From positions 2,511 through 66,510 of the forward strand of contig JBOGOE010000229.1 in the NCBI GenBank assembly GCA_050747445.1: DNA of 64,000 nucleotides, in the 5' to 3' direction. The notes beneath the pieces were generated by a model that searched no databases, was not told the origin of the DNA, and worked only from the letters and a program-made list of their open reading frames with translations. The stretch comes from Candidatus Polarisedimenticolia bacterium. GTDB lineage: Bacteria; Acidobacteriota; Polarisedimenticolia; Gp22-AA2. Shown here in pieces: positions 13,511-53,832 of the stretch (the stretch's first letter is position 1; every line of letters starts with the position of its first letter). The position numbers and the translations under genes are program-made.

Positions 13511-13530
13511 GCTCGATTCCTGGGGCCGCG

Positions 13531-17207: not shown

Positions 17208-17292
17208 CGGGGCTCCGGAGCGCCCTACGGCGTGCGCCGGGAGGTCCCGGTGTTCGGGAGCCGGGGCGGCCGCAATAGGCAGGAGGGCGGAT

Positions 17293-19716
<2,424 letters not shown>

Positions 19717-20456: not shown

Positions 20457-21698
20457 TCACTCGTAGCGCAACGCTTCGGAAGGGTCGAGGCGGGCGGCCC
20501 GCCAGGCGGGATAGAGGGTGGCCAGGAGCGAGACCCCCACGGTGAGGGTCGACACGACGACCACGTCCAGGAGCCGGACGTGGAACGGCACGTAGGGGAT
20601 GAAGTAGACGTCGACCGGCAGCGCCACCAGCCGGTACCGGTCGAGGAGCCAGGCGAGGGTGGTCCCCAGGGTCACGCCGAGGGTCGTGCCGAGAACGGCG
20701 ATGATCAGCCCCTGCAGGACGAACACCTTCCGGATCCCGCCGGGGGTCGCCCCCATCGCCAGGAGGACGCCGATGTCCCGCACCTTTTCCATGACCATCA
20801 GCACCAGAATCGACACGATATTGAGCGCCGCCACCAGCACGATGAGGCCGATGGCGATCGACATGCCGAGCTTCTCGAAGCGCAGCGCGGAGAAGAAGGT
20901 CCGGTTCATGCGGATCAGATCGGTGACGTAGTAGGAATCGCCGAGGGCCGTCTGGACCTCGCGGGCCGCCCGCTGAACCCCGCCGGGATCGTGGACCCGT
21001 GCCTCGACGGCGGTCGCCTGATCCTCGCCCAGCCCGACGAGACGGCGCGCCGCGTCGAGGGAGACGTAGGCCCTGCTGTTGTCGTAGTCGTAGAAGCCGG
21101 CATCCGACAACCCCGCGACTTCGAATTCGCGGCTGCGCGGAACGGCAAAAAAAGGGGAGACATCGGCCTGCGCGATCAGGATCCGGACGACGTCGCCCGG
21201 ACCGACACCGAGGTTGGACGCCAGATCCTTTCCGAGGATCACCCGTTCGCGGCCGCGCTCCCCGGGACGCAGCAGCGTCTCCAGCCGCCCCCCGACCTGC
21301 GCCGCGACCTCGGTGACCAGGGGATCGAGCCCCGGATCGATCCCCTTGATCAGGACGGCCGCCCCGGCGGCGTTGAGGGAGCTGACCGCCATCCCTTTCT
21401 CGTAGACCACGGGAGACGCCGCGCGAACCGGGTCCAGTGATTGGAGGCGCGCGGTCAACCGGCCGATCCCGTCGATGGGGCGGCCCGACCAGCCCGAGAA
21501 GATGGTCAGGTGGGCGTTGGCCCCGAAGATTTTCGACTGGATCTTGTCCTGGAAACCGGTCATCAGGGCGAGGACCAGGATCAGGGCCCCGACCCCGACG
21601 ATCACCCCCAGCACCGAGATGGAGGAGATTACGTAGATGATCGCCTGCTTGCGCCGGGCCAGCAGGTAACGCGCGGCGATGAACAGCGGGTATCCCAT
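20457..21698 (-). CDS. LolC/LolE family lipoprotein-releasing ABC permease (FtsX-like)
   Basis: 413 aa, N-terminal TM, large periplasmic MacB-like domain, C-terminal FtsX 3-TM bundle. Confidence 0.8.
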   Translation of the reverse strand: MGYPLFIAARYLLARRKQAIIYVISSISVLGVIVGVGALILVLALMTGFQDKIQSKIFGANAHLTIFSGWSGRPIDGIGRLTARLQSLDPVRAASPVVYEKGMAVSSLNAAGAAVLIKGIDPGLDPLVTEVAAQVGGRLETLLRPGERGRERVILGKDLASNLGVGPGDVVRILIAQADVSPFFAVPRSREFEVAGLSDAGFYDYDNSRAYVSLDAARRLVGLGEDQATAVEARVHDPGGVQRAAREVQTALGDSYYVTDLIRMNRTFFSALRFEKLGMSIAIGLIVLVAALNIVSILVLMVMEKVRDIGVLLAMGATPGGIRKVFVLQGLIIAVLGTTLGVTLGTTLAWLLDRYRLVALPVDVYFIPYVPFHVRLLDVVVVSTLTVGVSLLATLYPAWRAARLDPSEALRYE

Positions 21699-21890
21699 GG
21701 AGGGCGGCCCGGCCGGCCCGAGCGGCGGGCGGCAGGAGGGGCAGGATGTTACCGCGCGCTCCCGGGGCGGTCAAGAAGGCGGCGACCCGCCGCGGTCGTT
21801 CGGGCGGGGCGCGGTGCCGTTGCCGAATCCTCGCCCTCCAGGGCCCGCCGGGAGACCGGGACGTGGGATAATCGGCCGCAGCGGACACCC

Positions 21891-23918
21891 ATGAAACATC
21901 GCGGACCAAGCACCATCCTGCTTCTGACCGGCGTCCTGGGGGTCGCGGGTGCCGCGCCCCCGGCGGACGAGCCGGCGCCCCGCGTCGAGCGGGCCACGGT
22001 CGAGCTCGTGCTCATCGAGGCCTACGTGACGGACCGCGAGGACCGCGTCGTGCGCGGACTGGGACCGGAGGACTTCGTCCTCAAGGTCGACGGAATCACC
22101 CGGGCCATCAGCTCCGTCGAATTCAGGGATCTGGGGGCCGCCGAGCCGGCACCGGTGGCGTCCTCCGGCGAGGCTGATTCGGCGTCCGGTGTGCGGTCCC
22201 CCGTCGCCCACCCGCGACGCTTCGTGTTGTTCTTCGACGACGAAACGTCCTCCCCCCAGGGACTGGGTCTCGCCCGCAAGGCCGCGGACGAGCTCCTGGC
22301 CGGCGGTCTCCTGCCAGACGACCAGGTGGCGGTGGTCGCCTACCGGCGCCGGCTCGTCGTCCTGCACGATTTCAGCACCGACCGGGTCTCGCTGCGCCGC
22401 GCCGCGACCAGGGAGATCGACGACGTGGCGCGCGTGTCCCTGTTCAGCCTCGAGTCGCTGCAACGGGCCGAGGAGTTCATCGTCAAGCTGCGGACCGAGG
22501 GCCCCTCGGCCGCCGCGTCCATGCTCTCGGTGTTTGCTCACGAGGACCTCCAGCCCCAGCGCCGCGTCCTGCAGGCGCTGTCGGGGCTGGCCGACTCGCT
22601 CGCCGCCTGGCCCGGGTACAAGGGGCTCATCGTCATGGGGGACGGTCTCGCGGAGTACCCCGCCCAGGCCTACATCGATCGCCTCTATCCCGCTCCGGTG
22701 CCCCCGTCCGTGCTCGACGTCGTTCACAAGCACAACCTGACTCTCGAGATGAACGCCCTCATGCAGTCGGCTTCGGGCAGCGGCGTCACCTTCCATACCG
22801 TGCAGACTTCGGGACTGCTGGCGGGCAAGGCGGGCGATCTGCGGGCCGAGCGCCGCCGCTCGAACAGCCTGGAGAGCCTCGCCCTCAACACAGGGGGCGT
22901 GTCGTGGACCTCGAACGATCTCTCTCGAGGCCTGTCGGAGGCGGACCGGGGCAGCCGCTTCTATTACGTCATCGGCTACGCGCCCGAGGGTCCGGCGGAC
23001 GGACGGTTTCACGCCGTGAGGCTGCGGGTGAAGCGCGGCGGGCTGCGGCTCCGCTATCGCACCGGATTCACCCGGTTCACGCCCGAGGACGCGCACCGGC
23101 GGGCCGCTCAGGCCGCCTACCTCCTGCCGGAGATGTATCGCGATCTGGGGGTCACGCTGACTCCGGTCGAGGGCCCCGCGGACGGCTCGGGACGCGCCGT
23201 CGACCTGGTCGTCCACGTACCCCCCGGCCGCGTCCTGTTCCTGCCGCAGGCGGGACGGCCGATCGCCACCCTGGAGGCCGGATTCATCGCCATCGACGAC
23301 GCCGCGCGGGAGACCCTCCGGATGGCCAGACGCGTTCGCCTCGCGCTGCCTCCCGGCTCGCGGGCGGAGAGCGGCTCCGGGCTCAACCTGTTCGCGCGGG
23401 TCCGTCTTCCATCCGGCACCCAGACCATCACCGCCGTCCTGTCCGACCTCGGGAATTCGACCTTTGGCGCGGCGCGGGCGGTCCTGACGCCGCGGCCCGC
23501 CGGGGCGTCGATCCAGGGACTCTCCCTCTACTCCCTTTCGGAGCAGAGCCTGTGGGTGGAGCTGCGCCGGGCGGAGGGGGCATCCGGCGGCCTCGAGGAG
23601 GCGGATTTCGAGGTCGGTCCCGCGCTGCGAACCGTGTTCCGGCCCGACGAGCCGGTGGCCTGCGGCTTCCGCGCGCGGCCGTTCCCACACCTGCGGCTGG
23701 AGATCCGCGGCGCCCGGGGCGAACGTCGGTCCCTGGAACTGGCGGGTGGGAGCGGGGGACCCTTCAAGATGGCGATCCCGACCGCCGGACTGCGGCCCGG
23801 AGACTACCTTCTGGTCGTCAGCGAGGGGGGACCGGAGGCGGGCGTCGACCGCGGCAGCCTGGGATTCCGCATCCGCGCCGAACCCGCCCCGCCGGGGAAC
23901 GGCACCTCCGGCGGCTGA
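21891..23918 (+). CDS. Secreted VWA-domain protein (acidobacterial VWFA-related, TIGR03436-like)
   Basis: Start at ATG 21891 (MKHRGPSTILLLTGVLGVAGA signal). Recurrent motifs typical of the family (VELVLIEAYVTDREDRVVRGLGPEDFVLKVDG, FVLFFDDETSS, RFYYVIGYAP, FHAVRLRVKRGGLRLRYRTGF). The upstream 150 codons of the ORF are antisense to lolC/E and discarded. Confidence 0.65.
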   Translation: MKHRGPSTILLLTGVLGVAGAAPPADEPAPRVERATVELVLIEAYVTDREDRVVRGLGPEDFVLKVDGITRAISSVEFRDLGAAEPAPVASSGEADSASGVRSPVAHPRRFVLFFDDETSSPQGLGLARKAADELLAGGLLPDDQVAVVAYRRRLVVLHDFSTDRVSLRRAATREIDDVARVSLFSLESLQRAEEFIVKLRTEGPSAAASMLSVFAHEDLQPQRRVLQALSGLADSLAAWPGYKGLIVMGDGLAEYPAQAYIDRLYPAPVPPSVLDVVHKHNLTLEMNALMQSASGSGVTFHTVQTSGLLAGKAGDLRAERRRSNSLESLALNTGGVSWTSNDLSRGLSEADRGSRFYYVIGYAPEGPADGRFHAVRLRVKRGGLRLRYRTGFTRFTPEDAHRRAAQAAYLLPEMYRDLGVTLTPVEGPADGSGRAVDLVVHVPPGRVLFLPQAGRPIATLEAGFIAIDDAARETLRMARRVRLALPPGSRAESGSGLNLFARVRLPSGTQTITAVLSDLGNSTFGAARAVLTPRPAGASIQGLSLYSLSEQSLWVELRRAEGASGGLEEADFEVGPALRTVFRPDEPVACGFRARPFPHLRLEIRGARGERRSLELAGGSGGPFKMAIPTAGLRPGDYLLVVSEGGPEAGVDRGSLGFRIRAEPAPPGNGTSGG

Positions 23919-23931: not shown

Positions 23932-24699
23932 TCACGAGTCGGGTCGCTCGGCGCGCTTGCGGGCCACCCACGACCCGTTGGTCGCCTCTCCACCGGACAG
24001 GATGAAGTTCTGCCAGGTGCCCCGCACGGTCCGCCCGTCGGGAGCCAGGCTTCCCTCCAGGTCGGACGACCGTCCCAGCTTGGAATCGATCCGGTGGAGC
24101 AGCAGCTTGCCGTCCACGAAGGTCCCTTGCAGGCTCCCCTTCCAGCCCCCCTCGAGCGTGTATTCGCCCAGGAGAATCGTCCCCGACTGACGCAGCTGGA
24201 AGACGCCCTTGTCGCCGCTCGGGAGATAGGTCACGTCCCAGATGCCGGTCAGCGATTCATTGTCGGAGGGCAGGGTCTTCCGCAGGCGGGCGATCCGATC
24301 CGCGAGGATGTCGAGCCGCGCGTGGGTGTCGCGGATCTCGCTGCGCAGGGAGTGGCCCGCCCGCGCCAGGCCTTCGAGCTCCGACTCGCCCTTGAGAATG
24401 TCCGCCTCGCGCTGCTCGAGAAGCACCGGATCGGAGTCCGTCTGTCCCGAGATCATGGCGTCAAGGTCCTCGTAGAGCCGCGCCAGCCGCGCCGCGGCCT
24501 GCTGTCGGCCGCGGATGTGATCCGAATAGCGCTGCATCGCATCGTCCAGCCGGCGCTGCTCGATCTCCAGCTGCACCCTCAGGGTGTAGATGGCGGCGAG
24601 CTGCTCCTCGGGCCGCTTCAGGTCCTGCGCCCCGGACGGGAACGGGACCGCCAGCAGCGCCGCGCCCAGGGCCACTCCCCGCCATGCGCTCCGGCTCAC
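23932..24699 (-). CDS. Secreted hypothetical protein: signal peptide, coiled-coil, C-terminal beta-rich domain
   Basis: MSRSAWRGVALGAALLAVPFPSGAQD signal; heptad-rich middle; no recognisable catalytic motif. Last gene of the psd-pssA operon (4-nt overlap with Asd-like gene). Confidence 0.5.
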   Translation of the reverse strand: MSRSAWRGVALGAALLAVPFPSGAQDLKRPEEQLAAIYTLRVQLEIEQRRLDDAMQRYSDHIRGRQQAAARLARLYEDLDAMISGQTDSDPVLLEQREADILKGESELEGLARAGHSLRSEIRDTHARLDILADRIARLRKTLPSDNESLTGIWDVTYLPSGDKGVFQLRQSGTILLGEYTLEGGWKGSLQGTFVDGKLLLHRIDSKLGRSSDLEGSLAPDGRTVRGTWQNFILSGGEATNGSWVARKRAERPDS

Positions 24700-25739
24700 G
24701 CGGCGCCCCTCCCGAGGCCGGTTTCCAGGATGGTCTCGGCGATGCGCACGGCGTTCAGGGTGGTGCCCCCGACCAGATCATCAGCCGCCGCCCACAGCCA
24801 CGCGGACCCCTCCTCCGCCGGCCGCACACCCCCGACCAGGATCCCCGGCTTTCCCGCCCGCCCCACCGGCGTGACCGCCTTGCCCGGAGGCGCCAATTCG
24901 AGGTCCGGAGCCGAACGCAGCGCCTCCGGCAGCTCGGACGGCTGCCGCCCCTCCGGCAGGACGACCCGGAGGAGCACGGTGTGACAATGGAACACCGGCG
25001 CCAGAACCACCTCCACCTCGAGACCGTATCCATCTCCGGTCACGCGCAGCACCTCCTGCCGCAATCGTGCCGGATCGGAGCCACCGGGCATGGCGCCGCC
25101 CGCGTAGGCGGAGGACGGGATCAGATTGAAGGCCAGCTGCGACCCGTGGACGGCCGTGGGCAGGTCCTGGAAGTTGAGGACACCGAGCGTCTGCCGGTAG
25201 AGCTCGTCGATCGCCCCTTCCCCGGACCCGGAGGCCGGCTGGAAAACGACTGCGGTCGCCGCGCGGAGGCCGGGGCCGCGCCGGATCGGGGCCAGCACGC
25301 TCGAAAGGATCTGCGCCATGGGACCGGGAGCGGCGATCACCGACGGTGCCGGCGGGATCGCCTCCGGATTGACCGCGACGTTCACCACCGGCACCCCGGT
25401 GCGCTCCGGGGAGGCGGCGGTCAGGTCGATGGCGGTGAAGCCGATCCTCCGGGCCCACTCGTGATAGGGGAACGGTTCCGTGCCGGTCCCGCAGAGGAAC
25501 GCCAGATCGAGGCTCCCCAGCGCGTCCGGATCGGGTCTGGCGACCAGCATCGCCTCGCCGCCGAAGTCGGTGAGGTTGGCGTCCGGGTCCTCGCTGCTGG
25601 TGAACAACCGGACCGAGGCGGTGGGGAAGGCGCGCGCGACCAGCTGGTCCTTGAGGCCCTTGGCGAGCAGCGTGGTGGCCTCGAAGAGGGCGATGTGGGC
25701 CTTGAGGCGCGGCGGCGGGCGGGCTTCAGACCGCGCCAT
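24696..25739 (-). CDS. Aspartate-semialdehyde dehydrogenase family protein lacking catalytic Cys and Rossmann glycines (probable pseudoenzyme)
   Basis: Clear Asd-family blocks (FQPASGSGEGAIDELYRQTLGVLN, QLAFNLIP, VGGVRPAEEG...LVGGTTLNAVRIAETIL). The NxNCST active-site Cys position reads APGPMAQ, and GxxGxxG is replaced by ALFEATTLLAKG. Confidence 0.6.
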   Translation of the reverse strand: MARSEARPPPRLKAHIALFEATTLLAKGLKDQLVARAFPTASVRLFTSSEDPDANLTDFGGEAMLVARPDPDALGSLDLAFLCGTGTEPFPYHEWARRIGFTAIDLTAASPERTGVPVVNVAVNPEAIPPAPSVIAAPGPMAQILSSVLAPIRRGPGLRAATAVVFQPASGSGEGAIDELYRQTLGVLNFQDLPTAVHGSQLAFNLIPSSAYAGGAMPGGSDPARLRQEVLRVTGDGYGLEVEVVLAPVFHCHTVLLRVVLPEGRQPSELPEALRSAPDLELAPPGKAVTPVGRAGKPGILVGGVRPAEEGSAWLWAAADDLVGGTTLNAVRIAETILETGLGRGAA

Positions 25740-26484
25740 CGTTTCCCCCGGCCGTCGCCGGCCGCGCCTGCTCCTTGGGCGCCGCGCGGCCGGAGCGCGG
25801 CAGGAAGCCCGAGACCAGGTAGGCGAAGCTGAGCACCAGCCCCACCAGCTGGGGCGAGGCGGCGACCACGAAGTAGACGAGCGCGACGAGCAGCACCAGG
25901 ACCCAGCGGATGCGCGATCGAAGGTCGATCTCCTTGAACGAGCGGTAACGCACCTTGCTCACCATCAGTCCCGCCAGGAGCGTGAGCAGGACGGCAACCA
26001 TCCCCCCGGCGACCGGGTCGGTGATCCTCTCGGGGCTGTAGAAAACGCACGCGGAGACGACGCAGGCCCCCGCCGGTATCGGCAGCCCGACGAACCAGCG
26101 GCGGTCCTGACCCGGGGACTGGATGTTGAACCGGGCCAGACGGGCGGCCCCGGCGGTCACGTAGAGGAACGGCGCCAGGGACCAGGGCTTCGGAAGGGAC
26201 GCGAGGGCCCACATGTACGCCAGCAGCGCCGGCGCCATGCCGAAGGAAATGACGTCGGCCAGGGAGTCGAGCTGTACCCCGAAGTCACTCGTCGTACCGG
26301 TGAGACGCGCCACCCAGCCGTCGACCCGATCGAGAACGGCCGCGATGAACAACGCCACGGCCGCCCACTCGAACTCCCCCTGGATGCTGCGCACCACAGT
26401 GATGTAGCCGCACAGCAGGTTGCCGATGGTGAACAGGCTCGGCACCAGGTAGGCTCCGCGGCGGAAACGGGTCCGCTCCTTCAC
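25726..26484 (-). CDS. pssA: CDP-diacylglycerol--serine O-phosphatidyltransferase (CDP-alcohol phosphatidyltransferase family)
   Basis: Motif DRVDGWVARLTGTTSDFGVQLDSLADVISFG (D-x2-DG-x2-AR...G-x3-D-x3-D), 6 TM helices. Confidence 0.85.
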   Translation of the reverse strand: MKERTRFRRGAYLVPSLFTIGNLLCGYITVVRSIQGEFEWAAVALFIAAVLDRVDGWVARLTGTTSDFGVQLDSLADVISFGMAPALLAYMWALASLPKPWSLAPFLYVTAGAARLARFNIQSPGQDRRWFVGLPIPAGACVVSACVFYSPERITDPVAGGMVAVLLTLLAGLMVSKVRYRSFKEIDLRSRIRWVLVLLVALVYFVVAASPQLVGLVLSFAYLVSGFLPRSGRAAPKEQARPATAGGNDGAV

Positions 26485-27188
26485 CGGGCGGCTCCGGCGC
26501 CCGCGGCCCGCCCGGTTGCCATCGCGCCGGTGTCCCGGGCACGGGCCAGGATCGTCAGTCCGCCGCGCACGCGCTGCCCGATCGCCACCAGCGGCTCGAC
26601 TCCCGCCGGCAGCCGCAGGTCGGTGCGCGACCCGAACCGGATGAGACCGATCCGCTCGCCGCGCGACACGGCGTCTCCGGGGCGCTTGGTGCAGACGATC
26701 CGGCGGGCGACGATGCCGGCGATCTGCGTCACGCCGTAGCGGCCGTCCGCCGCTTCGAGTTCGAGGTGATTGCGCTCGTTCTCACGGCTCGCCCGCCCCT
26801 GCCACGCCGGGTGGAAACCTCCCGGGGTGTGGCGCACCGACACGACCCGCCCCGCCACCGGGGAGCGATTGATGTGACAGTCGAACAGGCTCAGGAAGAT
26901 CGAGATACTGGCCCCCTCAGGCTCGCGACGGACCTCGGTGACCCGGCCGTCGGCGGGGGCCAGCACCAGATCTTCCCCCGGCGGCGGGACGCGTTCGGGA
27001 TCACGGAAGAAATAGAGGAAGAAGGCGCCCGCCAGAACCGCCGGGGCCGCCCCAAGAGGTCCGAGGACGTACCCGAGCAGCACCGCGAGCGCGGCGGCTC
27101 CGAGCAGGAACGGAAATGCCTGTGGGGCGACCGGCACGATGGTTCTCCCTGCAGGAGGGGGCGGGCCCCGGGGCGACCGGGGCGCCAC
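26481..27188 (-). CDS. psd: Phosphatidylserine decarboxylase proenzyme (short PSD type)
   Basis: FLSLFDCHINRSPVAGRV and self-cleavage GS(T) region FGSRTDL. 4-nt overlap with pssA. Start position uncertain. Confidence 0.8.
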   Translation of the reverse strand: MAPRSPRGPPPPAGRTIVPVAPQAFPFLLGAAALAVLLGYVLGPLGAAPAVLAGAFFLYFFRDPERVPPPGEDLVLAPADGRVTEVRREPEGASISIFLSLFDCHINRSPVAGRVVSVRHTPGGFHPAWQGRASRENERNHLELEAADGRYGVTQIAGIVARRIVCTKRPGDAVSRGERIGLIRFGSRTDLRLPAGVEPLVAIGQRVRGGLTILARARDTGAMATGRAAGAGAAR

Positions 27189-31245: not shown

Positions 31246-33381
<2,136 letters not shown>

Positions 33382-33466
33382 AGGACGTGACGGGCCACGC
33401 CCCTGAGGGGCCGCGGCGGCCGGCCGCCCGCTCCGCAGGGGCTTTCGTTTCAGGGGCCTCCCGGCC

Positions 33467-34573
33467 ATGATTCTGCGGATCGAAGGCGACCACAGCCGCT
33501 TCAAGCAGATCGTCCGCGGCAAGATCAAGAAGGAGCTGCGGAAGTACATCAGCAGCGGAGAGCTGATCGGCCGGCGCGGCAAGGACCTGATCTCCATCCC
33601 CCTCCCGCAGATCAAGATCCCCCAGTTCGTCTATGGCCAGAAGCAGACCGGCGGCGTCGGCCAGGGCGAGGGCGCGGTCGGCACCGTCCTGGGCGCCGGG
33701 GAGATGGAGGGGGGCCAGCAGCAGGCGGGGAACACCCCGGGGGAGCACCTGCTGGAGGTCGACATCAGCCTCGACGAACTCGCCGCGATGCTGGGCGAGG
33801 AGCTCGAGCTGCCGGCCATCAAGCCCAGGGGGCGCAAGAACATCCTGTCGCACAAGGACCGTTACACGGGGATCGCGCATTACGGGCCGGAGACCCTCCG
33901 GCACTTCAAGCGGACCTACAAGGAGACCCTCAAGCGCAGCATCGCGACCGGCACGTACCGCCCGGATTTCCCAATCCTGATCCCGATCCGGCAGGACAAA
34001 CGCTACCGCTCCTGGAAGTCCGCGGTCATGCCGCAGGCCAACGCCGCGATCCTCTACATGATGGACGTGTCGGGGTCGATGGGCGAGGAGCAGAAGGAGA
34101 TCGTGCGGATCGAGTCCTTCTGGATCGACACCTGGCTGCGCCATCACTACAAGGGGGTCGAGATCCGCTACATCATCCACGACGCGGAGGCGCGCGAGGT
34201 CGATCGCGAGACCTTCTACCACACGCGCGAGTCGGGCGGGACGGTGATCTCCGCCGCCTACAAGCTGTGCGCCCGCATGATCGACACCGACTACCCCGCC
34301 GACGAATGGAACGTCTACGGGCTGCACTTCTCCGACGGCGACAACTGGTCCCAGGGAGACACCGAGGAGTGCGTCAACATCCTGAAGGGGCAGATCCTGC
34401 CCCGCGTGAATCTGTTCTGCTACGGACAGGTCGAGAGCCCCTACGGGACCGGGCAGTTTCTCGTGGACCTCAAGGAGGCCTACGGCGACGACGAGCGGGT
34501 CGCGCTCTCGAAAATCGAGAACAAGGACGGCATCTACCAGTCGATCAAGGACTTCCTGGGGCGGGGGCGATAG
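33467..34573 (+). CDS. yeaH: YeaH/YhbH family protein (DUF444, VWA-like)
   Basis: Conserved DUF444 blocks ([44 protein letters not shown]). Canonical partner of prkA. Confidence 0.9.
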
Positions 34574-34577
34574 CGCC

Positions 34578-36067
<1,490 letters not shown>

Positions 36068-36068
<1 letters not shown>

Positions 36069-42980: not shown

Positions 42981-43107
42981 GCGTCCTCCGCCGCGGGGCA
43001 CGTGGCCGCCGCAAAGGAAAAGGGCGGAGGCGCGCCCGCCCCCGCCCTGCGTCCTCGCGCCCGCGGCGCCGGGGTGGAGCCTCCGCCCGGGACGCCGCCG
43101 ATTGCGC

Positions 43108-45156
43108 TCAGTGGCACCCGCAGCCCGCGCCACACGACTCCCCCGCCGACGCTCCGGCAAGGACCGTGTCACGCCCCGGGACGCCGATCGGATCGGACAT
43201 CACCGGAAGCGGCTTCCCGAGCGCCGCCTCGGCCGCGGCGGACAGACCCATCGGCACGCTCTTCCCGGCCGCGTAGATCGGGTGCCGGCCCTTCTCCTTG
43301 AACCATTGCGCGGTGCTGTGGGTGGAGAACATCTTCTCGACGATCTGCCGCCAGCCGACGCCGGTGTTGTAGGCGCAGAACGACACCTCGCCGAGCTGCG
43401 TCGCGTAGGGGATGATGCACATTTCGGTGCGGCGGAAGTCGTAGTTGAAGAGATCCTGGAACCACATCCCGGCCACCATCATGATGCGCCAGTTATAGCG
43501 GGCCTTCTCCGCCAGACCCAGGCGACCGCCGTTGTGGCCGTCGATGATCTTCATCATCTCGCGCAGGTTGAGCCCCTGGGGCATCGCCTCGTAGCGGGCG
43601 TTGCGCAGGATCGAGAGCGCGAACTGGAACACCGTGAGCGGCTTCGACCGGCAGGTGTCGTTGATGACCTTGAGGTCTTCCAGCAGCTGATCGGTGTTCA
43701 GGATCTGAGGGAAGGGGTAGACCTCCTTGGTCGTCTGATTGATCACCAGCATGGTGCCGACCCCGCAGTTCGGATGGCAGCCGCATTTCATGGCACCCCA
43801 TTCGGACTCCAGACCCTGGAGCTGGTCGCGCAGGTCGGAGAACGGTCCGGACGCCGAGAGCGGATACCAGTCGCGGAGCGGCTCGGTGACGCCGAGCTGC
43901 CGCTTCAGGTCGTGCGCCAGATGCGAGAGGGTGTAGCGCTGCCGGCGGCGGGTCTCGTCGTCGATATCCTCGTCCCGGCCGGTGAACGACACCGGTTGGA
44001 ACGAGACGGCGTTGATCTTGTCGATGTGGTCGATGGCGAACTTCACGATCGGACCGACCTGCTCGTCGTTGACCGTGTTGACGATCGTCGTGACCAGCGT
44101 CACGTCGATGCCCGCGCGGTGCAGGTTCTCGATCGCCCGCTTCTTGACGTCGAAGAGATTGCCGACGCCCCGGTGGTTGTTCGCCTCGTTGGTGACGCCG
44201 TCGAACTGCAGGTAGGTCAGGCGGAGCCCCGCCGCCTTGGCGCGCAGGCAGAAGTCGAAGTCCTGCGCGAACCGGATGCCGTTGGTGGCGGCCTGCACGC
44301 TCATGTACCCGATCTTGCGGGCGTGGGCGACCGCGTCCAGAAAGAAGGGCGACAGGGTCGGCTCGCCGCCGGAGAACTGCACCGACATCTGACGCTTCGG
44401 CTTGACGTTGATCGAGTTGTCGAGGATCTGCCGGACATCGTCCCAGTTGAGCTCGTGGACGTAGCCGACCTGGTTCGCATCCATGAAACAGGGATTGCAC
44501 ATCATGTTGCAGCGATTGGTCAGATCGACGGTGAGCACCGCGCCGCGTCCGTACTTCACGGTGGAGGAGCCGTGATTGTGGTAGGGATCGGGCGCCATAC
44601 GGAAATCCCGGCCCGGGAACAACTTCTCCATGCGGCGCAGGAACGTGGCGTCGACCGCCATCAGGTCCTCGAAGTGACCGTGCGTCGGGCAGTCCTTCTC
44701 CATCCAGACCTGCCCCTCCCGCTCCACGATGCGGGCGCGGATCTCCCCCGGTCGCCCGTCGATGAGGGCCTTCCAGTCGCTTTCTCCCTTGAGGACGCCG
44801 TCGCGCACGTCCTTGACGCACTGCGGGCAGAGCGAGTCGGTCTCACGCGGGAATCCCAGCTCCGGGAAGGTCCGGTCCTTCGATTTGAGAAGCGGCGCCG
44901 GCGCCCATTTCGGGTGGAACCTGCCGTACGGGAGACGCCGGTTGACCGTCTGGAAAGCGTGCCAGGCGGCCTGCGCCGCCCCCTTGACGGCGAACCCGAC
45001 GAGGACCTGGGGCCGCAGGTAGCGCTTCAGACCCCGCCGCGTCGCGGCGGCGGAGCCGGAGACTGGCATGCCGGCACCGGCCGGCGCCGTGGGGGCCGGG
45101 GGGACGCTCGTCCCGACCGTTGTTGCCTCGGGAACGCGGGCCACAGCCTGATTCAT
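43108..45156 (-). CDS. Large radical SAM enzyme with N-terminal rubredoxin-like knuckle pair and Cys-rich C-terminal region
   Basis: CxxxCxxC = CNMMCNPC, SAM-binding QFSGGEPTL. N-terminal CPQC...CPTHGH. C-terminal clusters KCGCHPNCGVG, CIIPYATQLGEVSFC, ESCGAGCGCH. Start could be the later ATG (MPVSGS). Confidence 0.75.
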   Translation of the reverse strand: MNQAVARVPEATTVGTSVPPAPTAPAGAGMPVSGSAAATRRGLKRYLRPQVLVGFAVKGAAQAAWHAFQTVNRRLPYGRFHPKWAPAPLLKSKDRTFPELGFPRETDSLCPQCVKDVRDGVLKGESDWKALIDGRPGEIRARIVEREGQVWMEKDCPTHGHFEDLMAVDATFLRRMEKLFPGRDFRMAPDPYHNHGSSTVKYGRGAVLTVDLTNRCNMMCNPCFMDANQVGYVHELNWDDVRQILDNSINVKPKRQMSVQFSGGEPTLSPFFLDAVAHARKIGYMSVQAATNGIRFAQDFDFCLRAKAAGLRLTYLQFDGVTNEANNHRGVGNLFDVKKRAIENLHRAGIDVTLVTTIVNTVNDEQVGPIVKFAIDHIDKINAVSFQPVSFTGRDEDIDDETRRRQRYTLSHLAHDLKRQLGVTEPLRDWYPLSASGPFSDLRDQLQGLESEWGAMKCGCHPNCGVGTMLVINQTTKEVYPFPQILNTDQLLEDLKVINDTCRSKPLTVFQFALSILRNARYEAMPQGLNLREMMKIIDGHNGGRLGLAEKARYNWRIMMVAGMWFQDLFNYDFRRTEMCIIPYATQLGEVSFCAYNTGVGWRQIVEKMFSTHSTAQWFKEKGRHPIYAAGKSVPMGLSAAAEAALGKPLPVMSDPIGVPGRDTVLAGASAGESCGAGCGCH

Positions 45157-45193
45157 GTCACGCCTCCTCTGAGTACCGTTCCGTGAACATCAG

Positions 45194-46087
45194 TCAATGC
45201 CCGGCGGACGCACCGCCATCGGCGCCGGGGTCCGCTCTCCCCGGACCGGTTGCGAAGGCGCGCGCCCGCTCCTGGAACTGCCGGACCACGTGCCCATCCA
45301 GTCCGCGGCGGGCCCGGCGGAGACGCCGGTGCCACTCCGAACCCGGCCCCTCCCTGCCCAGGAGCGCCATGACCGGGAGGCGTCGCAGCCCCTTCAGTCG
45401 ATCGACCGGAGATCGCGCTCCCCGGGGCGCGAAACCGGACCAGGTGCGCCCGGCCCGCAGCTCGGAAAGAAAACCGGCGACGCCCGTGGCGCGCGCCGCG
45501 GTGTATCCCGTCCCCACCCCGCGGGGCGCCCGCGCGGAGCTCCCGCCGATGCGGTCGGGTGGGCGGCCGTTCCGTGCGTCCTGCGCGATCCGATCGACGA
45601 CATCGCACCAATCGGCTCCCCACGCGGCGCCTCCGGTTTCGATGCACTCGAACCGTTCCAGGATGCGGCGCAGTTCCACGGTGCCGCCGTCGGCTCCGAG
45701 AAGATGGGGGCTCGGCGCGAGCGCGGCGGCGATCGACGCTCCCCGGGCCCAGTGGAGCAACGCCTCGATGTCCTCCCTCAACCGCAGCGCCTCCGCCGCA
45801 CCGGTCTCGTCGAGGCCGAACAACAGCACGGGGACCCGGGTGCCGCTCGGCGGATCGAGGGCCCAGGTCTCCATGGAGATGATGAACCGTGCGTCCACGG
45901 GGTGCCGATCGAGATATCGCAGACACCCCTCGATGGTGTCGCGGTCGGTCAGGGTCGCGAGATCCATCCCGCGCCGCCATGCGGCGCGGACCATCGTCTC
46001 GGGCTCGCAGCCACGGCGACCCCGCCGGTAGGCGCACGGATCTCCGGCGGCGCCGAACCCGGAATGGACGTGCAGATCGGCACGCAT
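45194..46087 (-). CDS. PHP-domain metal-dependent phosphoesterase family protein
   Basis: MRADLHVHS... (PHP motif I HxH), further His/Asp-containing blocks. Start chosen at ATG 46085-46087; alternative ATG at 46151-46153. The upstream 5' part of the ORF is low-complexity. Confidence 0.6.
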   Translation of the reverse strand: MRADLHVHSGFGAAGDPCAYRRGRRGCEPETMVRAAWRRGMDLATLTDRDTIEGCLRYLDRHPVDARFIISMETWALDPPSGTRVPVLLFGLDETGAAEALRLREDIEALLHWARGASIAAALAPSPHLLGADGGTVELRRILERFECIETGGAAWGADWCDVVDRIAQDARNGRPPDRIGGSSARAPRGVGTGYTAARATGVAGFLSELRAGRTWSGFAPRGARSPVDRLKGLRRLPVMALLGREGPGSEWHRRLRRARRGLDGHVVRQFQERARAFATGPGRADPGADGGASAGH

Positions 46088-46167
46088 CCACCCGCGGCCG
46101 TGCCGCGGCTCCGTTCCGGACGAATCAGACCCGGTTGGTCCGAAAAGCGGCATGCGTCGAGAGGTCC

Positions 46168-46575
46168 TCAGGACGCCGTCTGACGGAGATCCTCGACGGT
46201 CGTCTTCTCGAGGATCACGGCCACCTTCCGCTGCACCTTGGCGAACACCTGCCGCAGGTGGCAGCGATGCTTCCGCCCCGTCTCGCGCAGGTGATCGAGG
46301 CAGCGATGAAACTCGATCGGCCCCTGCAGCGCCTCGATGATCTCGCGCAACGTGATCCGACCCGCCGGACGGGCGAGCTGGAAGCCGCCGCGGAATCCCC
46401 GGCGCGATCGAATGAGCCCCTTGGACGCCAGGCGCTGGAAGATCTTGGACAGAAACGTCGGCGGGATCGACGTCGCCCGGGAAATGTCCCGGATCAACGC
46501 CGTCTCTCCGCGCCCCTGTCGCGCCAGGTACAGGACCCCCTCGATCGCGTATTCGACCCCCTTCGTCAGCTGCAT
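46168..46575 (-). CDS. Rrf2 family transcriptional regulator (IscR/NsrR-like) with Cys ligands
   Basis: MQLTKGVEYAIEGVLYLAR wHTH, SKIFQRLASKGLIRSRRGFRGG, Cys at CLDHL...HRCHL. Confidence 0.8.
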   Translation of the reverse strand: MQLTKGVEYAIEGVLYLARQGRGETALIRDISRATSIPPTFLSKIFQRLASKGLIRSRRGFRGGFQLARPAGRITLREIIEALQGPIEFHRCLDHLRETGRKHRCHLRQVFAKVQRKVAVILEKTTVEDLRQTAS

Positions 46576-46676
46576 CGTCGCGTGTCCCGATTACTTGGGC
46601 GCATTCTACTAGCCGGCAAGGAGATGTCAAGAGACCTGCGCTTGACCGCGGGGCCCGGGCGCCCCATGTTGGCGGC

Positions 46677-47222
46677 GTGCGGGGACCAGCGGGCGCGGTT
46701 GGGCGCCTCGTCGCCGGGGCGGGTCTGGCGGGCTGGGCCCTCGCCCTCGCCCGCCAGGATCGCCCCTTTTCCCCGCTGGATTGGGCCAATCTGGCGTTCC
46801 ACGAGGCCGGTCACCTGGTGTTCGCCCCGTTCGGACGCACCCTCCATCTCCTGGGGGGGACGCTGCTGCAGCTCCTGGTTCCCATGGTCCTGACCGGATA
46901 CTTCCTGCTGCGACGCCACAGTCCCCCGGCGGCGCTGGCCTGCGCTTTCTGGATCGGGGAGAGCCTGCTCAACGTCTACGTGTACATGGCGGACGCGCGC
47001 GACCTGAGCCTTCCCCTGGTCGGGGGCGGTGAACACGACTGGAACGGGCTGCTGTACGACTTCGGTCTGCTGAACGCCGACGCGGTCGCGGCGATCTCCG
47101 GGTGGACCCGGGGCGCGGCGGTGCTCCTCATGCTGGGGGCGGCCGGCGCGCTCGCGTGGCTGGCGCTGCGGCCGGACCACGAGGTGGCGCTTCGTGAATC
47201 CCTGGAGGAGCGCGCCGGCTGA
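46677..47222 (+). CDS. Small polytopic membrane protein with HEAGH (HExxH) motif; possible intramembrane metallopeptidase-like
   Basis: 181 aa, 4-5 hydrophobic helices, LAFHEAGHLVF. Divergent from the Rrf2 regulator. Weak call. Confidence 0.4.
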   Translation: MRGPAGAVGRLVAGAGLAGWALALARQDRPFSPLDWANLAFHEAGHLVFAPFGRTLHLLGGTLLQLLVPMVLTGYFLLRRHSPPAALACAFWIGESLLNVYVYMADARDLSLPLVGGGEHDWNGLLYDFGLLNADAVAAISGWTRGAAVLLMLGAAGALAWLALRPDHEVALRESLEERAG

Positions 47223-52764: not shown

Positions 52765-53832
52765 ATGGGCGGGCGTCTCAGGGAACGGATCGAGTCGGAG
52801 TCGGGAAGGCTGCTGCGGGAACGGGCGGCGCGGATCCGGACGCAGATCGAAGGGGCGCTCCGGGAGCTTTCCGACCCGCTGGAGCTCGAGCTGGCCCCCG
52901 GCGAGTGGGGGGCCGCCGAGGGGGAAGGACAGGTCCAGGCGCTGCGCGAGGCGGTCGACGCGCTGGCACGCCACGAGTCGCAGCGGGACATCCTCACCGC
53001 CCTCATGGACGCCGCGGCCGCCTTCTATCCGCGCGCCGCGGTCTTCGTCGTCAAGGAAGGAACCCTGTCCGGGTGGGCCGGTCTCGGATTTCTTGGAGAG
53101 GGCGGGTTCGTGAGCGAGGCGGTCCCGCGTGTCACTCTCCCCGCCGGCGAGGACCACCTCCTCGGACGGGCGCTGCGTTCCCGCTCGCTGCAGCGCGCCG
53201 GGCCGGAAGGTCCGGGGGAGCGGATCATCGCGGCGCTCGGCCGCGTCAGACCGCGGGAGACCTGCGCCGTGCCGGTCCTGGTCCGGACCCGGCCCGTGGC
53301 CGTGCTGTACGGCGACACCGGAACGACCGCCGACGCGGGACGCCCGCTGTCCTTCGACGTCGTGGCGCGGGTGGCCGGTCTTGCGATGGAGCGTCTCGCC
53401 GCCCACACCCGGCGACCCACCCGGCCCGGCGAGGCGCCACCACCGGTTCCCGCGCCCCACGCCGCGCGGGCGGGAGGCGTCATCACCCCGCCCGAGGAGG
53501 CCGAGGTGCGCGCCCTCATCGCGGATCTCGACACCATCCCCCGGCGGCCGGCCGCCGACGACGGCCTCTCCGACGAGGAGCGCCGGAGGCAGTCGGATGC
53601 CCGCCGCTTCGCGCACCTCCTGGTCTCCGAGCTCCTGCTCTACAACGAGGAGGCGGTCCTGCAGGGGCGGCGGCACCGCGACCTCTACGCGCGGCTCTCC
53701 AAGGAGATCGAACGCAGCCGGCAGGCCTACCGGGACCGGTTTCCGTCACGGACCGGCGCGCGCGATCATTTCGAGGAGGAGCTGGTGCGGTTGCTGGCGG
53801 AGGGGAACACCGCGCTCATGGGGTCGCACTGA
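52765..53832 (+). CDS. Hypothetical protein with GAF-like domain
   Basis: AAVFVVKEGTLSGWAGLGF...CAVPVLVRTRPVAVLYGDTG resembles a GAF core. C-terminal helical region. No catalytic motif. Confidence 0.45.
   Translation: MGGRLRERIESESGRLLRERAARIRTQIEGALRELSDPLELELAPGEWGAAEGEGQVQALREAVDALARHESQRDILTALMDAAAAFYPRAAVFVVKEGTLSGWAGLGFLGEGGFVSEAVPRVTLPAGEDHLLGRALRSRSLQRAGPEGPGERIIAALGRVRPRETCAVPVLVRTRPVAVLYGDTGTTADAGRPLSFDVVARVAGLAMERLAAHTRRPTRPGEAPPPVPAPHAARAGGVITPPEEAEVRALIADLDTIPRRPAADDGLSDEERRRQSDARRFAHLLVSELLLYNEEAVLQGRRHRDLYARLSKEIERSRQAYRDRFPSRTGARDHFEEELVRLLAEGNTALMGSH

What the first reader, a model, noticed from the sequence alone, without database searches (positions are those of the whole stretch)
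43108..45156. Large radical-SAM enzyme with rubredoxin-like knuckles and three Cys clusters: candidate Tes/MSS-like membrane-spanning lipid synthase
Beyond the canonical CNMMCNPC/GGEP radical-SAM core, the protein has an N-terminal CPQC…CPTHG pair (rubredoxin-like knuckles with one His). It also has at least two C-terminal Cys-rich segments (KCGCHPNC; ESCGAGCGCH) that could ligate auxiliary [4Fe-4S] clusters. This architecture of one mononuclear site plus three clusters is what has been described for archaeal tetraether synthase (GDGT/MAS). Bacterial membrane-spanning lipid synthases in lineages that make iso-diabolic-acid/brGDGT-type lipids are thought to be related radical-SAM enzymes. If this window is from an acidobacterium, the gene is a plausible candidate for that chemistry. 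I cannot confirm the homology from memory alone.
Basis: inference. Interest (0 to 1): 0.6.

Follow-up and report, generated by a model that had tools for sequence, protein, structure and literature searches.

The report
Acidobacterial Tes-like lipid synthase gene
This gene encodes an acidobacterial relative of the archaeal enzyme that welds two lipid tails into a membrane-spanning lipid; such bacterial relatives are already known (but unproven) candidates for making the brGDGT lipids used as climate proxies, and this one sits in a divergent branch that has lost one of the enzyme's four metal centres.

Summary
The ORF is real: minus strand, 43108-45156, 682 aa, GGAGG ribosome-binding site, terminator 60 nt downstream. 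It is a full-length homologue of archaeal tetraether synthase Tes/GDGT-MAS (NCBIfam Tes E 1e-99; PDB 7TOL E 4e-66; AlphaFold model matches 7TOL/7TOM over the whole chain, TM 0.88). The source is an acidobacterium (class Polarisedimenticolia).

The "one iron plus three clusters" architecture is not supported. The rubredoxin-like site, the radical-SAM cluster and the catalytic C-terminal cluster (C464, C580, C594, Met564, with Tyr584) are conserved. [quoted passage not shown] The protein scores 334 bits against a Tes cut-off of 450.

It belongs to a well-supported bacterial subclade ("type B") found in Acidobacteriota, Gemmatimonadota and Polyangia. This is distinct from the archaeal-like bacterial Tes ("type A"). 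The terminal ESCGAGCGCH lies in a disordered, lineage-specific tail. The protein is not MSS-like.

The most likely function is Tes-type tail-to-tail C-C coupling of lipid chains; this is unproven. Bacterial Tes homologues have been known since 2022, so this is a new member of a known kind.

The parts
43108..45156 (-). CDS of the Tes-like radical-SAM enzyme, 682 aa (stop codon 43108-43110)
45163..45167 (-). Shine-Dalgarno GGAGG, 7 nt upstream of the ATG at 45156
   Evidence: read directly from the sequence
44857..45030 (-). Clade-specific N-terminal extension (aa 43-100). It contains a confidently predicted helix 49-72. It is absent from M. jannaschii Tes, whose first ligand is Cys9.
   Evidence: conserved consensus; pLDDT 90-98
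44656..44853 (-). Rubredoxin-like zinc-ribbon domain (aa 102-167). Ligands are C110, C113, C156, H159. The knuckle spacing is x42, not x20 as in Tes.
   Evidence: ligand motif C9X2C12X20C33X2H36 from PMC9433317
44548..44601 (-). Degenerate N-cluster loop (aa 186-203, RMAPDPYHNHGSSTVKYG). It replaces the Tes CxxxCxxCxxH motif. H195-G-S-S is conserved and no Cys remains.
44035..44523 (-). Radical-SAM core (aa 212-374) with the SAM cluster C216-x3-C220-x2-C223 and the GGEP motif at 263-266. The 5'-dA contacts F224, Q387, S390, R394 are conserved.
43321..43794 (-). C-terminal auxiliary-cluster / lipid-pocket domain (aa 455-612). C464, C580, C594 and labile Met564 match Mj C338, C455, C470, M439; Tyr584 matches Mj Y459. 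It also carries the clade-invariant extra C458 and C460 (motif C-x-C-H-P-x-C-G).
   Evidence: roles from PMC9433317
43141..43320 (-). C-terminal region after the Tes-homologous part (aa 613-672). It is confidently modelled to about residue 640, with helices 615-622 and 640-645. After that it becomes a low-complexity Ala/Pro/Gly-rich linker of variable length and low confidence.
43111..43140 (-). Terminal Cys/His tail ESCGAGCGCH (aa 673-682; C675, C679, C681, H682). It is lineage-specific but under selection.
43021..43048 (-). Intrinsic-terminator-like hairpin (12 bp stem, 10 GC pairs) plus T-run, 60 nt after the stop codon
45194..46153 (-). Upstream ORF encoding a divergent PHP-like metallohydrolase (DLHVHS motif). 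The start is ATG 46153 or 46087.
46168..46575 (-). Rrf2-family transcriptional regulator, the first gene of the putative operon
   Evidence: the same position in L001, L002, L086, L087, L088
46603..46630 (-). Sigma-70-like promoter TTGACA-16-TAGAAT (11 of 12 matches) upstream of the Rrf2 gene

Best explanation
The gene encodes a bacterial member of the Tes/GDGT-MAS family of radical-SAM lipid synthases, from an acidobacterium of class Polarisedimenticolia. It belongs to a divergent bacterial subclade that I call type B.

Inferred mechanism, by homology to the M. jannaschii enzyme:
1. The C216/C220/C223 [4Fe-4S] cluster binds and cleaves SAM.
2. The 5'-deoxyadenosyl radical abstracts a hydrogen from the terminal carbon of a lipid tail held in a hydrophobic pocket.
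3. The substrate radical is parked on the C-terminal [4Fe-4S] cluster (C464, C580, C594, labile Met564).
4. A second SAM activates a second tail, which couples to the first through a C(sp3)-C(sp3) bond.

In an acidobacterium the likely substrates are iso-branched acyl or alkyl chains of glycerolipids. The likely products are iso-diabolic-acid-type membrane-spanning lipids, the skeleton of brGDGTs.

Electrons probably enter through the surface rubredoxin-like Fe site (C110, C113, C156, H159). The second surface relay of archaeal Tes, the N-terminal [4Fe-4S] cluster, is absent. In this lineage the gene is the last gene of a small Rrf2-regulated operon, and the protein carries a tethered Cys3His tail of unknown role.

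Shown here: homology, fold, ligand conservation and loss, clade structure, operon signals. Inferred: substrate, product, electron path, regulation.
For: Whole-length similarity to Tes:
- NCBIfam NF045702 E 1.2e-99, profile positions 2-484 of 486.
- PDB 7TOL E 4.1e-66 over residues 139-612.
- The AF2 model (pLDDT 89.3) matches 7TOM/7TOL with E 6e-39 and target TM 0.88-0.89 over about 540 columns. The next hits (MoaA and others) cover only the core at TM about 0.25.

Catalytic residues are conserved in 22/22 clade members: the RS cysteines, F224, Q387, S390, R394, C464, M564, C580, Y584, C594. Their roles come from PMC9433317.

Taxonomy: the source is Acidobacteriota. The clade occurs in Acidobacteriaceae, Bryobacterales/Solibacteraceae, Blastocatellia/Pyrinomonadaceae and Vicinamibacterales. 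My mapping, not tested here: these taxa correspond to the subdivisions (1, 3, 4, 6) reported to make iso-diabolic acid. MSS homologues are reported absent from Acidobacteria (PMC13159169).

An Edaphobacter MAG carries a type-B protein (P0350). E. aggregans makes brGDGT and has a single Tes homologue at 32% identity to archaeal Tes (PMC8941075). That level matches type B (30% to Mj) and not type A (45%).

Culture work links Tes homologues to tetraester or tetraether production (Chen 2025, as cited in PMC13023045).
Against: - No bacterial Tes homologue has been shown to work (PMC11868695).
- A Tes-like protein of T. ethanolicus gave no membrane-spanning lipid in E. coli (bioRxiv 10.1101/2022.04.21.487849).
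- The protein is below the NCBIfam Tes equivalog cut-off (334 against 450 bits), as is every type-B protein tested (299-355 bits). Type A scores 474-583 bits.
- One of the four Tes metallocentres is missing. Arg210, a 5'-dA contact in Mj, is not conserved.
- Type A and type B both occur in Bryobacterales-type genomes, which fits divergent functions of paralogues.
- No lipid-ether or other lipid-tail gene is linked to it, in the part of the window examined or across 80 loci.
Confidence: 0.6

Rival explanations
1. Type B is a diverged paralogue of Tes. It still acts on hydrophobic lipid tails by radical chemistry but catalyses a different reaction. Examples would be a mid-chain cross-link, a different coupling position, or another tail modification. 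The true tail-to-tail synthase of Acidobacteria would then be type A or an unknown enzyme.
For: - Type B is below the equivalog cut-off while type A passes.
- The N cluster is lost and Arg210 is not conserved.
- Type B has a conserved N-terminal extension and an invariant extra CxC next to the C-cluster ligand.
- It is a strongly supported separate clade (NJ bootstrap 193/200 and 200/200).
- Both types occur in Bryobacterales.
- The best-scoring bacterial homologues linked to brGDGT or tetraester producers (Koribacter, Solibacter; 40-42% identity to archaeal Tes) match type A identity levels.
Against: - The residues that define Tes chemistry are all invariant in type B: C cluster, labile Met, Tyr459 equivalent, RS cluster, most 5'-dA contacts.
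- The whole lipid-pocket domain superposes on 7TOL.
- Many type-B-bearing lineages (Acidobacteriaceae, Pyrinomonadaceae) make iso-diabolic acid and reportedly lack MSS.
Confidence: 0.25
2. The enzyme still carries three [4Fe-4S] clusters plus the mononuclear iron. The lost N cluster would be replaced by a cluster bound to the clade-specific cysteines (C458/C460, possibly with His) or to the terminal Cys3His tail, which has the same 3Cys+1His ligand set as the Tes N cluster.
For: - C-x-C-H-P-x-C-G is invariant in 81/81 type-B loci.
- The tail motif ESCG[AS]GCGCH is identical in P0122, which is only 45% identical overall and has an unrelated linker, so the tail is under selection.
- 59 of 117 close homologues end in CxC[H]-type motifs.
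Against: - The tail is predicted disordered (pLDDT about 40).
- The tail is absent from 119/120 Acidobacteriaceae-type type-B proteins and from many close relatives. It therefore cannot be an integral cofactor site of the clade.
- Similar Cys-Gly tails also occur in type A, which still has the N cluster.
- C458 and C460 sit 4-6 residues from the C-cluster ligand, so they more probably belong to that site. No coordinates were available to test geometry.
Confidence: 0.1
3. It is an MSS-type membrane-spanning lipid synthase (Thermotoga/Thermoanaerobacter family), or another radical-SAM subfamily such as TrsS, SPASM maturases, or the old 'hydroxymethylpterin dimethyltransferase' annotation.
For: JGI names some cluster members '7,8-dihydro-6-hydroxymethylpterin dimethyltransferase'. 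TrsS is the second-best NCBIfam hit (213 bits). MSS models are reported to share the catalytic architecture of Tes (PMC13274423).
Against: - TrsS scores 213 bits against a 490-bit cut-off. All SPASM, MoaA and NirJ models match only residues about 200-410 at 30-72 bits, far below their cut-offs.
- The pterin methyltransferase assignment of MJ0619 could not be reproduced and was replaced by GDGT-MAS (PMC9433317).
- No mss homologues were found in Acidobacteria, and Tes is only remotely related to MSS (PMC13159169).
Confidence: 0.03

Closest known systems
Tes / GDGT-MAS of Methanocaldococcus jannaschii (MJ0619; PDB 7TOL, 7TOM)
   Same: The overall four-domain fold is the same (TM 0.88). Also shared: the rubredoxin-like 3Cys+His iron site, the CX3CX2C SAM cluster, the C-terminal [4Fe-4S] cluster with three Cys plus a labile Met, the conserved active-site Tyr, and most 5'-dA contacts.
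   Different: - About 30% identity.
- The N-terminal [4Fe-4S] ligands (C73, C77, C80, H83) are lost.
- A 22-residue insertion lies between the rubredoxin knuckles.
- There is a conserved N-terminal extension of about 60 residues.
- Two extra invariant cysteines precede the C-cluster ligand.
- A 70-residue C-terminal extension ends in a Cys3His tail.
- The host is bacterial and presumably has fatty-acid-based rather than isoprenoid lipids.
Bacterial 'type A' Tes homologues (named 'tetraether lipid synthase Tes' in NCBI annotation, e.g. Bryobacteraceae; by identity level, probably the Koribacter/Solibacter-type homologues of Zeng et al. 2022)
   Same: Same family and same phylum. They are stand-alone genes, and some also carry Cys-Gly-rich C-terminal tails.
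   Different: Type A is about 540 aa and scores 474-583 bits on NF045702, above the cut-off. It keeps all Mj ligands including the N cluster (119/119 sequences) and has x20 knuckle spacing. It is 45% identical to Mj, against 30% for the window protein.
Edaphobacter-type Tes homologue (E. aggregans: single homologue, 32% identity to M. acetivorans Tes; Zeng et al. 2022)
   Same: Probably the same type-B clade. An Edaphobacter sp. MAG protein (P0350) is type B with 314 bits on NF045702. The published identity level fits type B.
   Different: Acidobacteriaceae members lack the Cys3His tail and the Rrf2 linkage. The equivalence with the E. aggregans protein itself is inferred, not tested.
MSS (membrane-spanning lipid synthase) of Thermotoga maritima / Thermoanaerobacter ethanolicus
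   Same: It is a radical-SAM enzyme that couples two lipid tails. It is reported to share the catalytic architecture of Tes in models (PMC13274423).
   Different: It belongs to a different family, only remotely related to Tes, and is reported absent from Acidobacteria (PMC13159169). It was not compared directly here.
Gms (GMGT synthase) and SPASM-type radical-SAM enzymes
   Same: They share the radical-SAM core plus auxiliary clusters used for C(sp3)-C(sp3) bond formation.
   Different: Gms has no rubredoxin domain (PMC13459092). SPASM and twitch profiles match only the core of this protein.

Membership tests
Tes / GDGT-MAS (NCBIfam NF045702, Pfam Zn_ribbon_HMPTM + Radical_SAM) | End-to-end sequence and fold similarity to the solved enzyme, not only in the radical-SAM core | tested here: met
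   Profile positions 2-484 of 486 matched. 7TOL E 4e-66 over residues 139-612. Foldseek against 7TOM/7TOL: E 6e-39, TM 0.88.
Tes / GDGT-MAS (NCBIfam NF045702, Pfam Zn_ribbon_HMPTM + Radical_SAM) | Score above the curated equivalog cut-off (450 bits) | tested here: not met
   334.1 bits. Other type-B proteins score 299-355 bits and type A 474-583 bits.
Tes / GDGT-MAS (NCBIfam NF045702, Pfam Zn_ribbon_HMPTM + Radical_SAM) | Rubredoxin-like mononuclear Fe site, CX2C...CX2H | tested here: met
   C110, C113, C156, H159 are conserved in all aligned sequences. The spacing is x42 instead of x20.
Tes / GDGT-MAS (NCBIfam NF045702, Pfam Zn_ribbon_HMPTM + Radical_SAM) | N-terminal auxiliary [4Fe-4S] cluster ligated by C73, C77, C80 and a conserved His | tested here: not met
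   The aligned residues are gap, H195, S198 and K201. There is no Cys in 22/22 type-B sequences, whereas type A and archaeal-like sequences keep CCCH.
Tes / GDGT-MAS (NCBIfam NF045702, Pfam Zn_ribbon_HMPTM + Radical_SAM) | Radical-SAM CX3CX2C cluster and SAM/5'-dA binding residues | tested here: met
   C216/C220/C223, GGEP 263-266, F224, Q387, S390 and R394 are conserved. The Arg210 equivalent is not conserved.
Tes / GDGT-MAS (NCBIfam NF045702, Pfam Zn_ribbon_HMPTM + Radical_SAM) | C-terminal [4Fe-4S] cluster with three Cys and the labile Met439, plus the conserved Tyr459 | tested here: met
   C464, C580, C594, M564 and Y584 are invariant in 22/22 type-B sequences.
Tes / GDGT-MAS (NCBIfam NF045702, Pfam Zn_ribbon_HMPTM + Radical_SAM) | Catalyses tail-to-tail C(sp3)-C(sp3) coupling of two lipid chains | not testable with these tools
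   This needs expression or an in vitro assay with lipid analysis. No bacterial homologue has been verified (PMC11868695).
MSS (Thermotoga / Thermoanaerobacter membrane-spanning lipid synthase) | Homology to the confirmed MSS proteins (published criterion: E <= 1e-50, identity >= 30%) | not tested
   No MSS sequence was obtainable here. The literature reports no mss homologues in Acidobacteria and only a remote relation between Tes and MSS (PMC13159169).
TrsS radical SAM (seleno)protein (NF045646) | Score above the 490-bit equivalog cut-off | tested here: not met
   213.3 bits, covering only residues 138-422.
SPASM/twitch radical-SAM maturases (PqqE, anSME, NirJ, MftC and others) | Match to the family profile including the C-terminal SPASM cluster domain, above the cut-off | tested here: not met
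   All hits cover only residues about 200-410 at 30-72 bits, against cut-offs of 265-650 bits. PDB hits to SkfB and CteB are core-only.

The most novel reading that the evidence does not exclude
Type-B Tes-like proteins are a distinct three-metallocentre version of tetraether synthase that has shed the surface-exposed N-terminal [4Fe-4S] cluster. They could be the so-far unassigned tail-to-tail synthase of iso-diabolic acid and brGDGT skeletons in Acidobacteria (subdivisions 1, 3, 4, 6), Gemmatimonadota and Polyangia. Searches with a >=30% identity threshold against archaeal Tes would have under-counted them, because type B sits at about 30%. In Polarisedimenticolia the enzyme would additionally be controlled by an Rrf2 regulator and use a tethered Cys3His tail as a redox or Fe-S delivery arm.
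Probability: 0.3. Interest if true: 0.7.

Novelty: new member of a known kind. Interest (0 to 1): 0.35.

Why it matters
brGDGTs are among the most widely used terrestrial palaeothermometers, yet their producers and biosynthetic enzymes are still not established. Bacterial Tes homologues are the leading candidates. This window adds one more candidate, from an uncultured acidobacterial class.

The analysis also shows that "bacterial Tes homologues" are at least two separate enzyme types, with different cofactor sets and very different similarity to the archaeal enzyme. That distinction matters for gene-based surveys of brGDGT producers, because identity or bit-score thresholds pick up type A and miss type B. 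It also matters for choosing which genes to test biochemically. As a single gene it is not a surprise, since the family has been reported since 2022.

Tried and rejected
- **Conserved gene neighbourhood.** tblastn of nine window neighbours against 81 loci, plus all-against-all clustering of 1011 ORFs, found no partner gene shared beyond the Polarisedimenticolia-like group. The largest neighbour cluster occurs in 11 of 81 loci.
- **Sigma-54 promoter** that could link the upstream NtrC-type regulator to the operon: 17 matches against 13.2 expected, none upstream of the Rrf2 or Tes genes.
- **Second Tes copy or other radical-SAM gene in the window:** none. There is only one CxxxCxxC ORF.
- **Lipid-ether or ring genes (Ger/PlsA, ElbD, GrsA-like) in the window:** none among the 30 proteins scanned. 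A few ORFs were not scanned.
- **Geometry of the extra cysteines and the tail:** the model's coordinates are not exposed, so no distances could be measured. The afdb50 library was not available.
- **Finding the clade in cultured, lipid-characterised strains:** cluster look-ups and contig look-ups returned only metagenome contigs without organism names. The supplementary tables of PMC13159169 are not held.
- **PHP-like neighbour:** no Pfam hit at E <= 1e-3 and no PDB match at E <= 1. Only a weak CehA/McbA N-terminal match (E 0.0012).
- **TrsS literature:** it gave no information on function.
- **My first definition of 'type B' was not monophyletic**. Once P0130 was included it was (193/200). 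The wider N-cluster-less clade has 200/200 support.
Full report
**1. Observation**

The finding's coordinates hold a single ORF on the minus strand, 43108..45156 (682 aa, ATG start).
- Codon-position GC is 0.63/0.45/0.91, the signature of a genuine gene in this 70% GC window.
- A GGAGG Shine-Dalgarno lies 7 nt upstream of the ATG.
- A strong hairpin plus T-run terminator lies 60 nt after the stop codon.

- CPQC: C110, C113
- CPTHG: C156, H159
- CNMMCNPC: C216, C220, C223
- GGEP: 263-266
- KCGCHPNC: C458, C460, C464
- ESCGAGCGCH: the last ten residues

The 901-aa ORF on the + strand is the usual antisense artefact of high-GC DNA.

**2. What it is**

Pfam finds Radical_SAM (1.7e-18) and Zn_ribbon_HMPTM (1.6e-15), the N-terminal ribbon of the MJ0619 family. 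The best NCBIfam model is NF045702, 'tetraether lipid synthase Tes'. It matches with E 1.2e-99 over profile positions 2-484 of 486, but at 334 bits it is below the 450-bit equivalog cut-off. All other radical-SAM families match only the core.

The only full-length solved relative is M. jannaschii GDGT-MAS (7TOL/7TOM), at E 4.1e-66 over residues 139-612. An AlphaFold2 model built on 125 sequences has mean pLDDT 89.3 and is disordered only at 1-31 and 657-682. It matches 7TOM/7TOL at E 6e-39 with target-normalised TM 0.88-0.89 over about 540 columns. The next hits (MoaA, SkfB, viperin, HydE) cover only the radical-SAM core.

The protein matches an NCBI MAG protein from 'Candidatus Polarisedimenticolia bacterium' at 100% reported identity (the two differ at about two tail residues). 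That class belongs to Acidobacteriota.

**3. Metal sites compared with the solved enzyme**

Lloyd et al. (PMC9433317) give the ligands of the M. jannaschii enzyme:
- rubredoxin-like Fe: C9, C12, C33, H36
- [4Fe-4S]N: C73, C77, C80 plus a conserved His
- radical-SAM cluster: CX3CX2C
- [4Fe-4S]C: three Cys plus the labile Met439
- Tyr459: strictly conserved in archaeal homologues

I aligned the window protein with the PDB sequence, 42 family representatives clustered at 50% identity, 81 genomic loci and 119 'type A' bacterial proteins. The result:

| Site in Mj Tes | Window protein | Status |
|---|---|---|
| Rubredoxin-like Fe | C110, C113, C156, H159 | Conserved; 22-residue insertion between the knuckles (x42 instead of x20) |
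| Radical-SAM cluster and 5'-dA contacts | C216/C220/C223; F224, Q387, S390, R394 | Conserved |
| Arg210 | G330 | Not conserved |
| C cluster | C464 (=C338), C580 (=C455), C594 (=C470), M564 (=M439), Y584 (=Y459) | Invariant in 22/22 clade members |
| N cluster (C73/C77/C80/H83) | gap/H195/S198/K201 | No Cys at these positions in any of 22 clade members; none in this loop in any of 81 loci |

The Tes-type architecture that can be supported is one Fe plus two [4Fe-4S] clusters, not three.

- KCGCHPNC contains one genuine C-cluster ligand (C464). It also contains two extra cysteines that are invariant in this clade (C-x-C-H-P-x-C-G in 81/81 loci) and have no counterpart in the M. jannaschii enzyme.
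- ESCGAGCGCH lies outside the Tes fold, at the end of a low-complexity linker, and is predicted disordered.

**4. Two kinds of bacterial Tes homologue**

A search started from the nearest N-cluster-bearing representative (P0149) recovers about 540-aa acidobacterial proteins. NCBI's annotation names several of them 'tetraether lipid synthase Tes', for example from Bryobacteraceae. These 'type A' proteins score 474-583 bits on NF045702. They keep every Mj ligand (119/119) and are 45% identical to Mj Tes.

The window protein and its relatives ('type B') score 299-355 bits, are about 30% identical to Mj, and lack the N cluster. They also share a conserved N-terminal extension of about 60 residues, with a confidently predicted helix at 49-72.

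In a neighbour-joining tree of 62 sequences:
- core type B is supported in 193 of 200 bootstraps;
- the wider N-cluster-less clade is supported in 200 of 200;
- its nearest neighbours are bacterial type-A-like sequences.

Type B is widespread. Among GTDB species representatives the 80 best loci come from:
- Acidobacteriaceae/Terriglobia
- Bryobacterales/Solibacteraceae
- Pyrinomonadaceae/Blastocatellia
- Vicinamibacterales
- Thermoanaerobaculia
- Polarisedimenticolia
- Gemmatimonadota
- Polyangia
- Latescibacterota

An Edaphobacter MAG protein (P0350) is type B.

Zeng et al. reported 40-42% identity to archaeal Tes for the Koribacter and Solibacter homologues, and 32% for the single E. aggregans homologue (PMC8941075). 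This suggests those are type A and type B respectively. That is an inference from identity levels, not a direct test.

**5. Genomic setting**

The gene appears to be the last of a three-gene unit on the minus strand:
1. a near-consensus sigma-70 promoter (TTGACA-16-TAGAAT, 46630-46603)
2. an Rrf2-family regulator (46575-46168)
3. a divergent PHP-like ORF (to 45194)
4. the Tes-like gene
5. the terminator (43048-43021)

This is based.

The downstream DUF885 gene most likely starts at 42980, after the terminator, with its own GGAGG.

The order histidine kinase, NtrC-type regulator, Rrf2, (PHP-like), Tes is kept in five related contigs, down to about 69% identity (L001, L002, L086, L087, L088). 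Rrf2 always sits directly upstream. The PHP-like gene is present in three of the six contigs, counting the window.

Outside this lineage there is no conserved neighbour. No sigma-54 promoter was found.

The rest of the window is housekeeping:
- BamA-OmpH-LpxD-FabZ-LpxA
- phosphatidylserine decarboxylase and a CDP-alcohol phosphatidyltransferase
- ClpB
- MurC
- PolX

It has no second radical-SAM gene.

**6. The C-terminal tail**

Among close homologues, 59 of 117 end in CxxxCxC[H] or CxC[H]. P0122 is only 45% identical overall, and it lacks both the rubredoxin insertion and any similarity in the linker. Yet it ends in the same AAGESCG[AS]GCGCH. The motif is therefore under selection independently of the linker.

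The tail is nevertheless absent from essentially all Acidobacteriaceae type-B proteins (119 of 120 have no Cys in the last 12 residues). Different Cys-Gly tails occur in 45 of 119 type-A proteins.

I read it as an accessory, tethered metal-binding or redox-active arm, not an integral auxiliary-cluster site. From general knowledge, an analogy is the mobile C-terminal Cys pair of class I ribonucleotide reductase. This is speculative.

**7. Mechanism and function**

The radical-SAM site, the C cluster with its labile Met, the conserved Tyr and the whole lipid-pocket domain are all retained. The best-supported reading is that the enzyme performs Tes-type chemistry:
1. Two successive SAM cleavages take place.
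2. Hydrogen is abstracted from the terminal carbon of a lipid tail.
3. The first radical is held temporarily on a sulfide of the C cluster.
4. The first tail couples to a second tail (mechanism from PMC9433317 and PMC13459092).

In an acidobacterium the plausible product is an iso-diabolic-acid-type membrane-spanning lipid. Archaeal Tes binds ester phospholipids too. Culture work associates Tes homologues with tetraesters in Koribacter and brGDGTs in Solibacter (Chen 2025, as cited in PMC13023045). The substrate, the product and the electron path remain inferred.

Evidence against:
- No bacterial homologue has been verified.
- A T. ethanolicus Tes-like protein was inactive in E. coli.
- Type B is below the equivalog threshold.
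- Type A and type B coexist in some lineages, as expected for paralogues with different jobs.

**8. Comparison with what is known, and verdict**

Bacterial Tes homologues (456 in the first survey) have been proposed as brGDGT synthases since 2022 (PMC8941075). They are routinely counted in metagenomic surveys (PMC11868695). JGI already labels some close relatives of this protein 'tetraether lipid synthase'. MSS is a different, remotely related family that is reported absent from Acidobacteria.

The finding is therefore a correct identification of a new member of a known kind. One important correction is needed: it has two clusters plus one Fe, not three.

In the papers I could search I did not find the type A / type B split or the loss of the N cluster described. 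This may be useful to specialists but is a modest increment. Interest 0.35.

Noticed in passing
window 46168-46575 (-) and 46603-46630 (-); also L001, L002, L086, L087, L088: An Rrf2-family regulator sits immediately upstream of the Tes-like gene in all six Polarisedimenticolia-like contigs, behind a near-consensus sigma-70 promoter in the window. Its putative cluster-binding region has only two Cys (C92, C105) but four His (H90, H95, H103, H106), unlike the Cys3His of IscR. It might couple expression of the lipid enzyme to Fe-S or redox status.
   Followed up: partly
window 45194-46153 (-); L001 9153-9920; L088 2827-3807: A divergent PHP-like ORF (N-terminal DLHVHS motif) lies between the Rrf2 and Tes-like genes in three of six related contigs. 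It has no Pfam hit at E <= 1e-3 and no PDB match at E <= 1, only a weak CehA/McbA match. Its function is unknown.
   Followed up: partly
L085 8001-9806 (protein P0122): An intermediate Tes-like form: no N-cluster cysteines, but the short (x20) rubredoxin spacing and 414 bits on the Tes model. It is only 45% identical to the window protein yet ends in the same ESCGSGCGCH tail. It may be a second paralogue in a related lineage.
   Followed up: partly
proteins P0126, P0132, P0147 (family representatives): A sister branch of type B has lost the N-cluster cysteines and most of the C-cluster cysteines (A/H at the C464 position, S at C580; C594 is kept in two of the three). It keeps the rubredoxin and SAM-cluster ligands. 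These Tes-like proteins presumably cannot use the cluster-adduct mechanism.
   Followed up: no
L088 6756-10040 (opposite strand, downstream of the Tes-like gene): In one related contig the Tes-like gene is followed by a B12-binding radical-SAM gene, a family-2 glycosyltransferase, an acyl-carrier-like protein and an AMP-binding enzyme. B12 radical-SAM enzymes are the class that cyclises and methylates archaeal GDGT tails. No such gene is in the window.
   Followed up: no
L002 (record titled Dongiaceae bacterium) and protein P0387 (named Candidatus Bathyarchaeia archaeon): L002 carries a 76%-identical homologue with the same acidobacterial gene order, but sits in an alphaproteobacterial MAG. 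P0387 is 88% identical to an Acidobacteriaceae type-B protein, but sits in an archaeal MAG. Both look like mis-binned contigs. This is a caution for MAG-based surveys of who owns Tes genes.
   Followed up: no
window 11137-17450 (-) and 25726-27188 (-): There is a classical outer-membrane and lipid A cluster (BamA, OmpH/Skp, LpxD, FabZ, LpxA). There is also a phosphatidylserine decarboxylase plus CDP-alcohol phosphatidyltransferase pair. The organism therefore also makes ordinary ester phospholipids and LPS. Neither cluster is linked to the Tes-like gene.
   Followed up: partly
window 31246-36068 (+): This stretch has lower GC (0.63 against about 0.70) and three ORFs of 711, 368 and 438 aa. By synteny with L001 they correspond to PrkA, DUF444 and SpoVR. 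They were not scanned directly in the window.
   Followed up: no
window 21441-23918 (+), 52765-53832 (+), 23932-24699 (-), 46677-47222 (+): Four ORFs with coding-type GC3 have no Pfam match at the thresholds used (825, 355, 255 and 181 aa). The 181-aa ORF is inserted between the NtrC-type and Rrf2 genes and is absent from L001.
   Followed up: no
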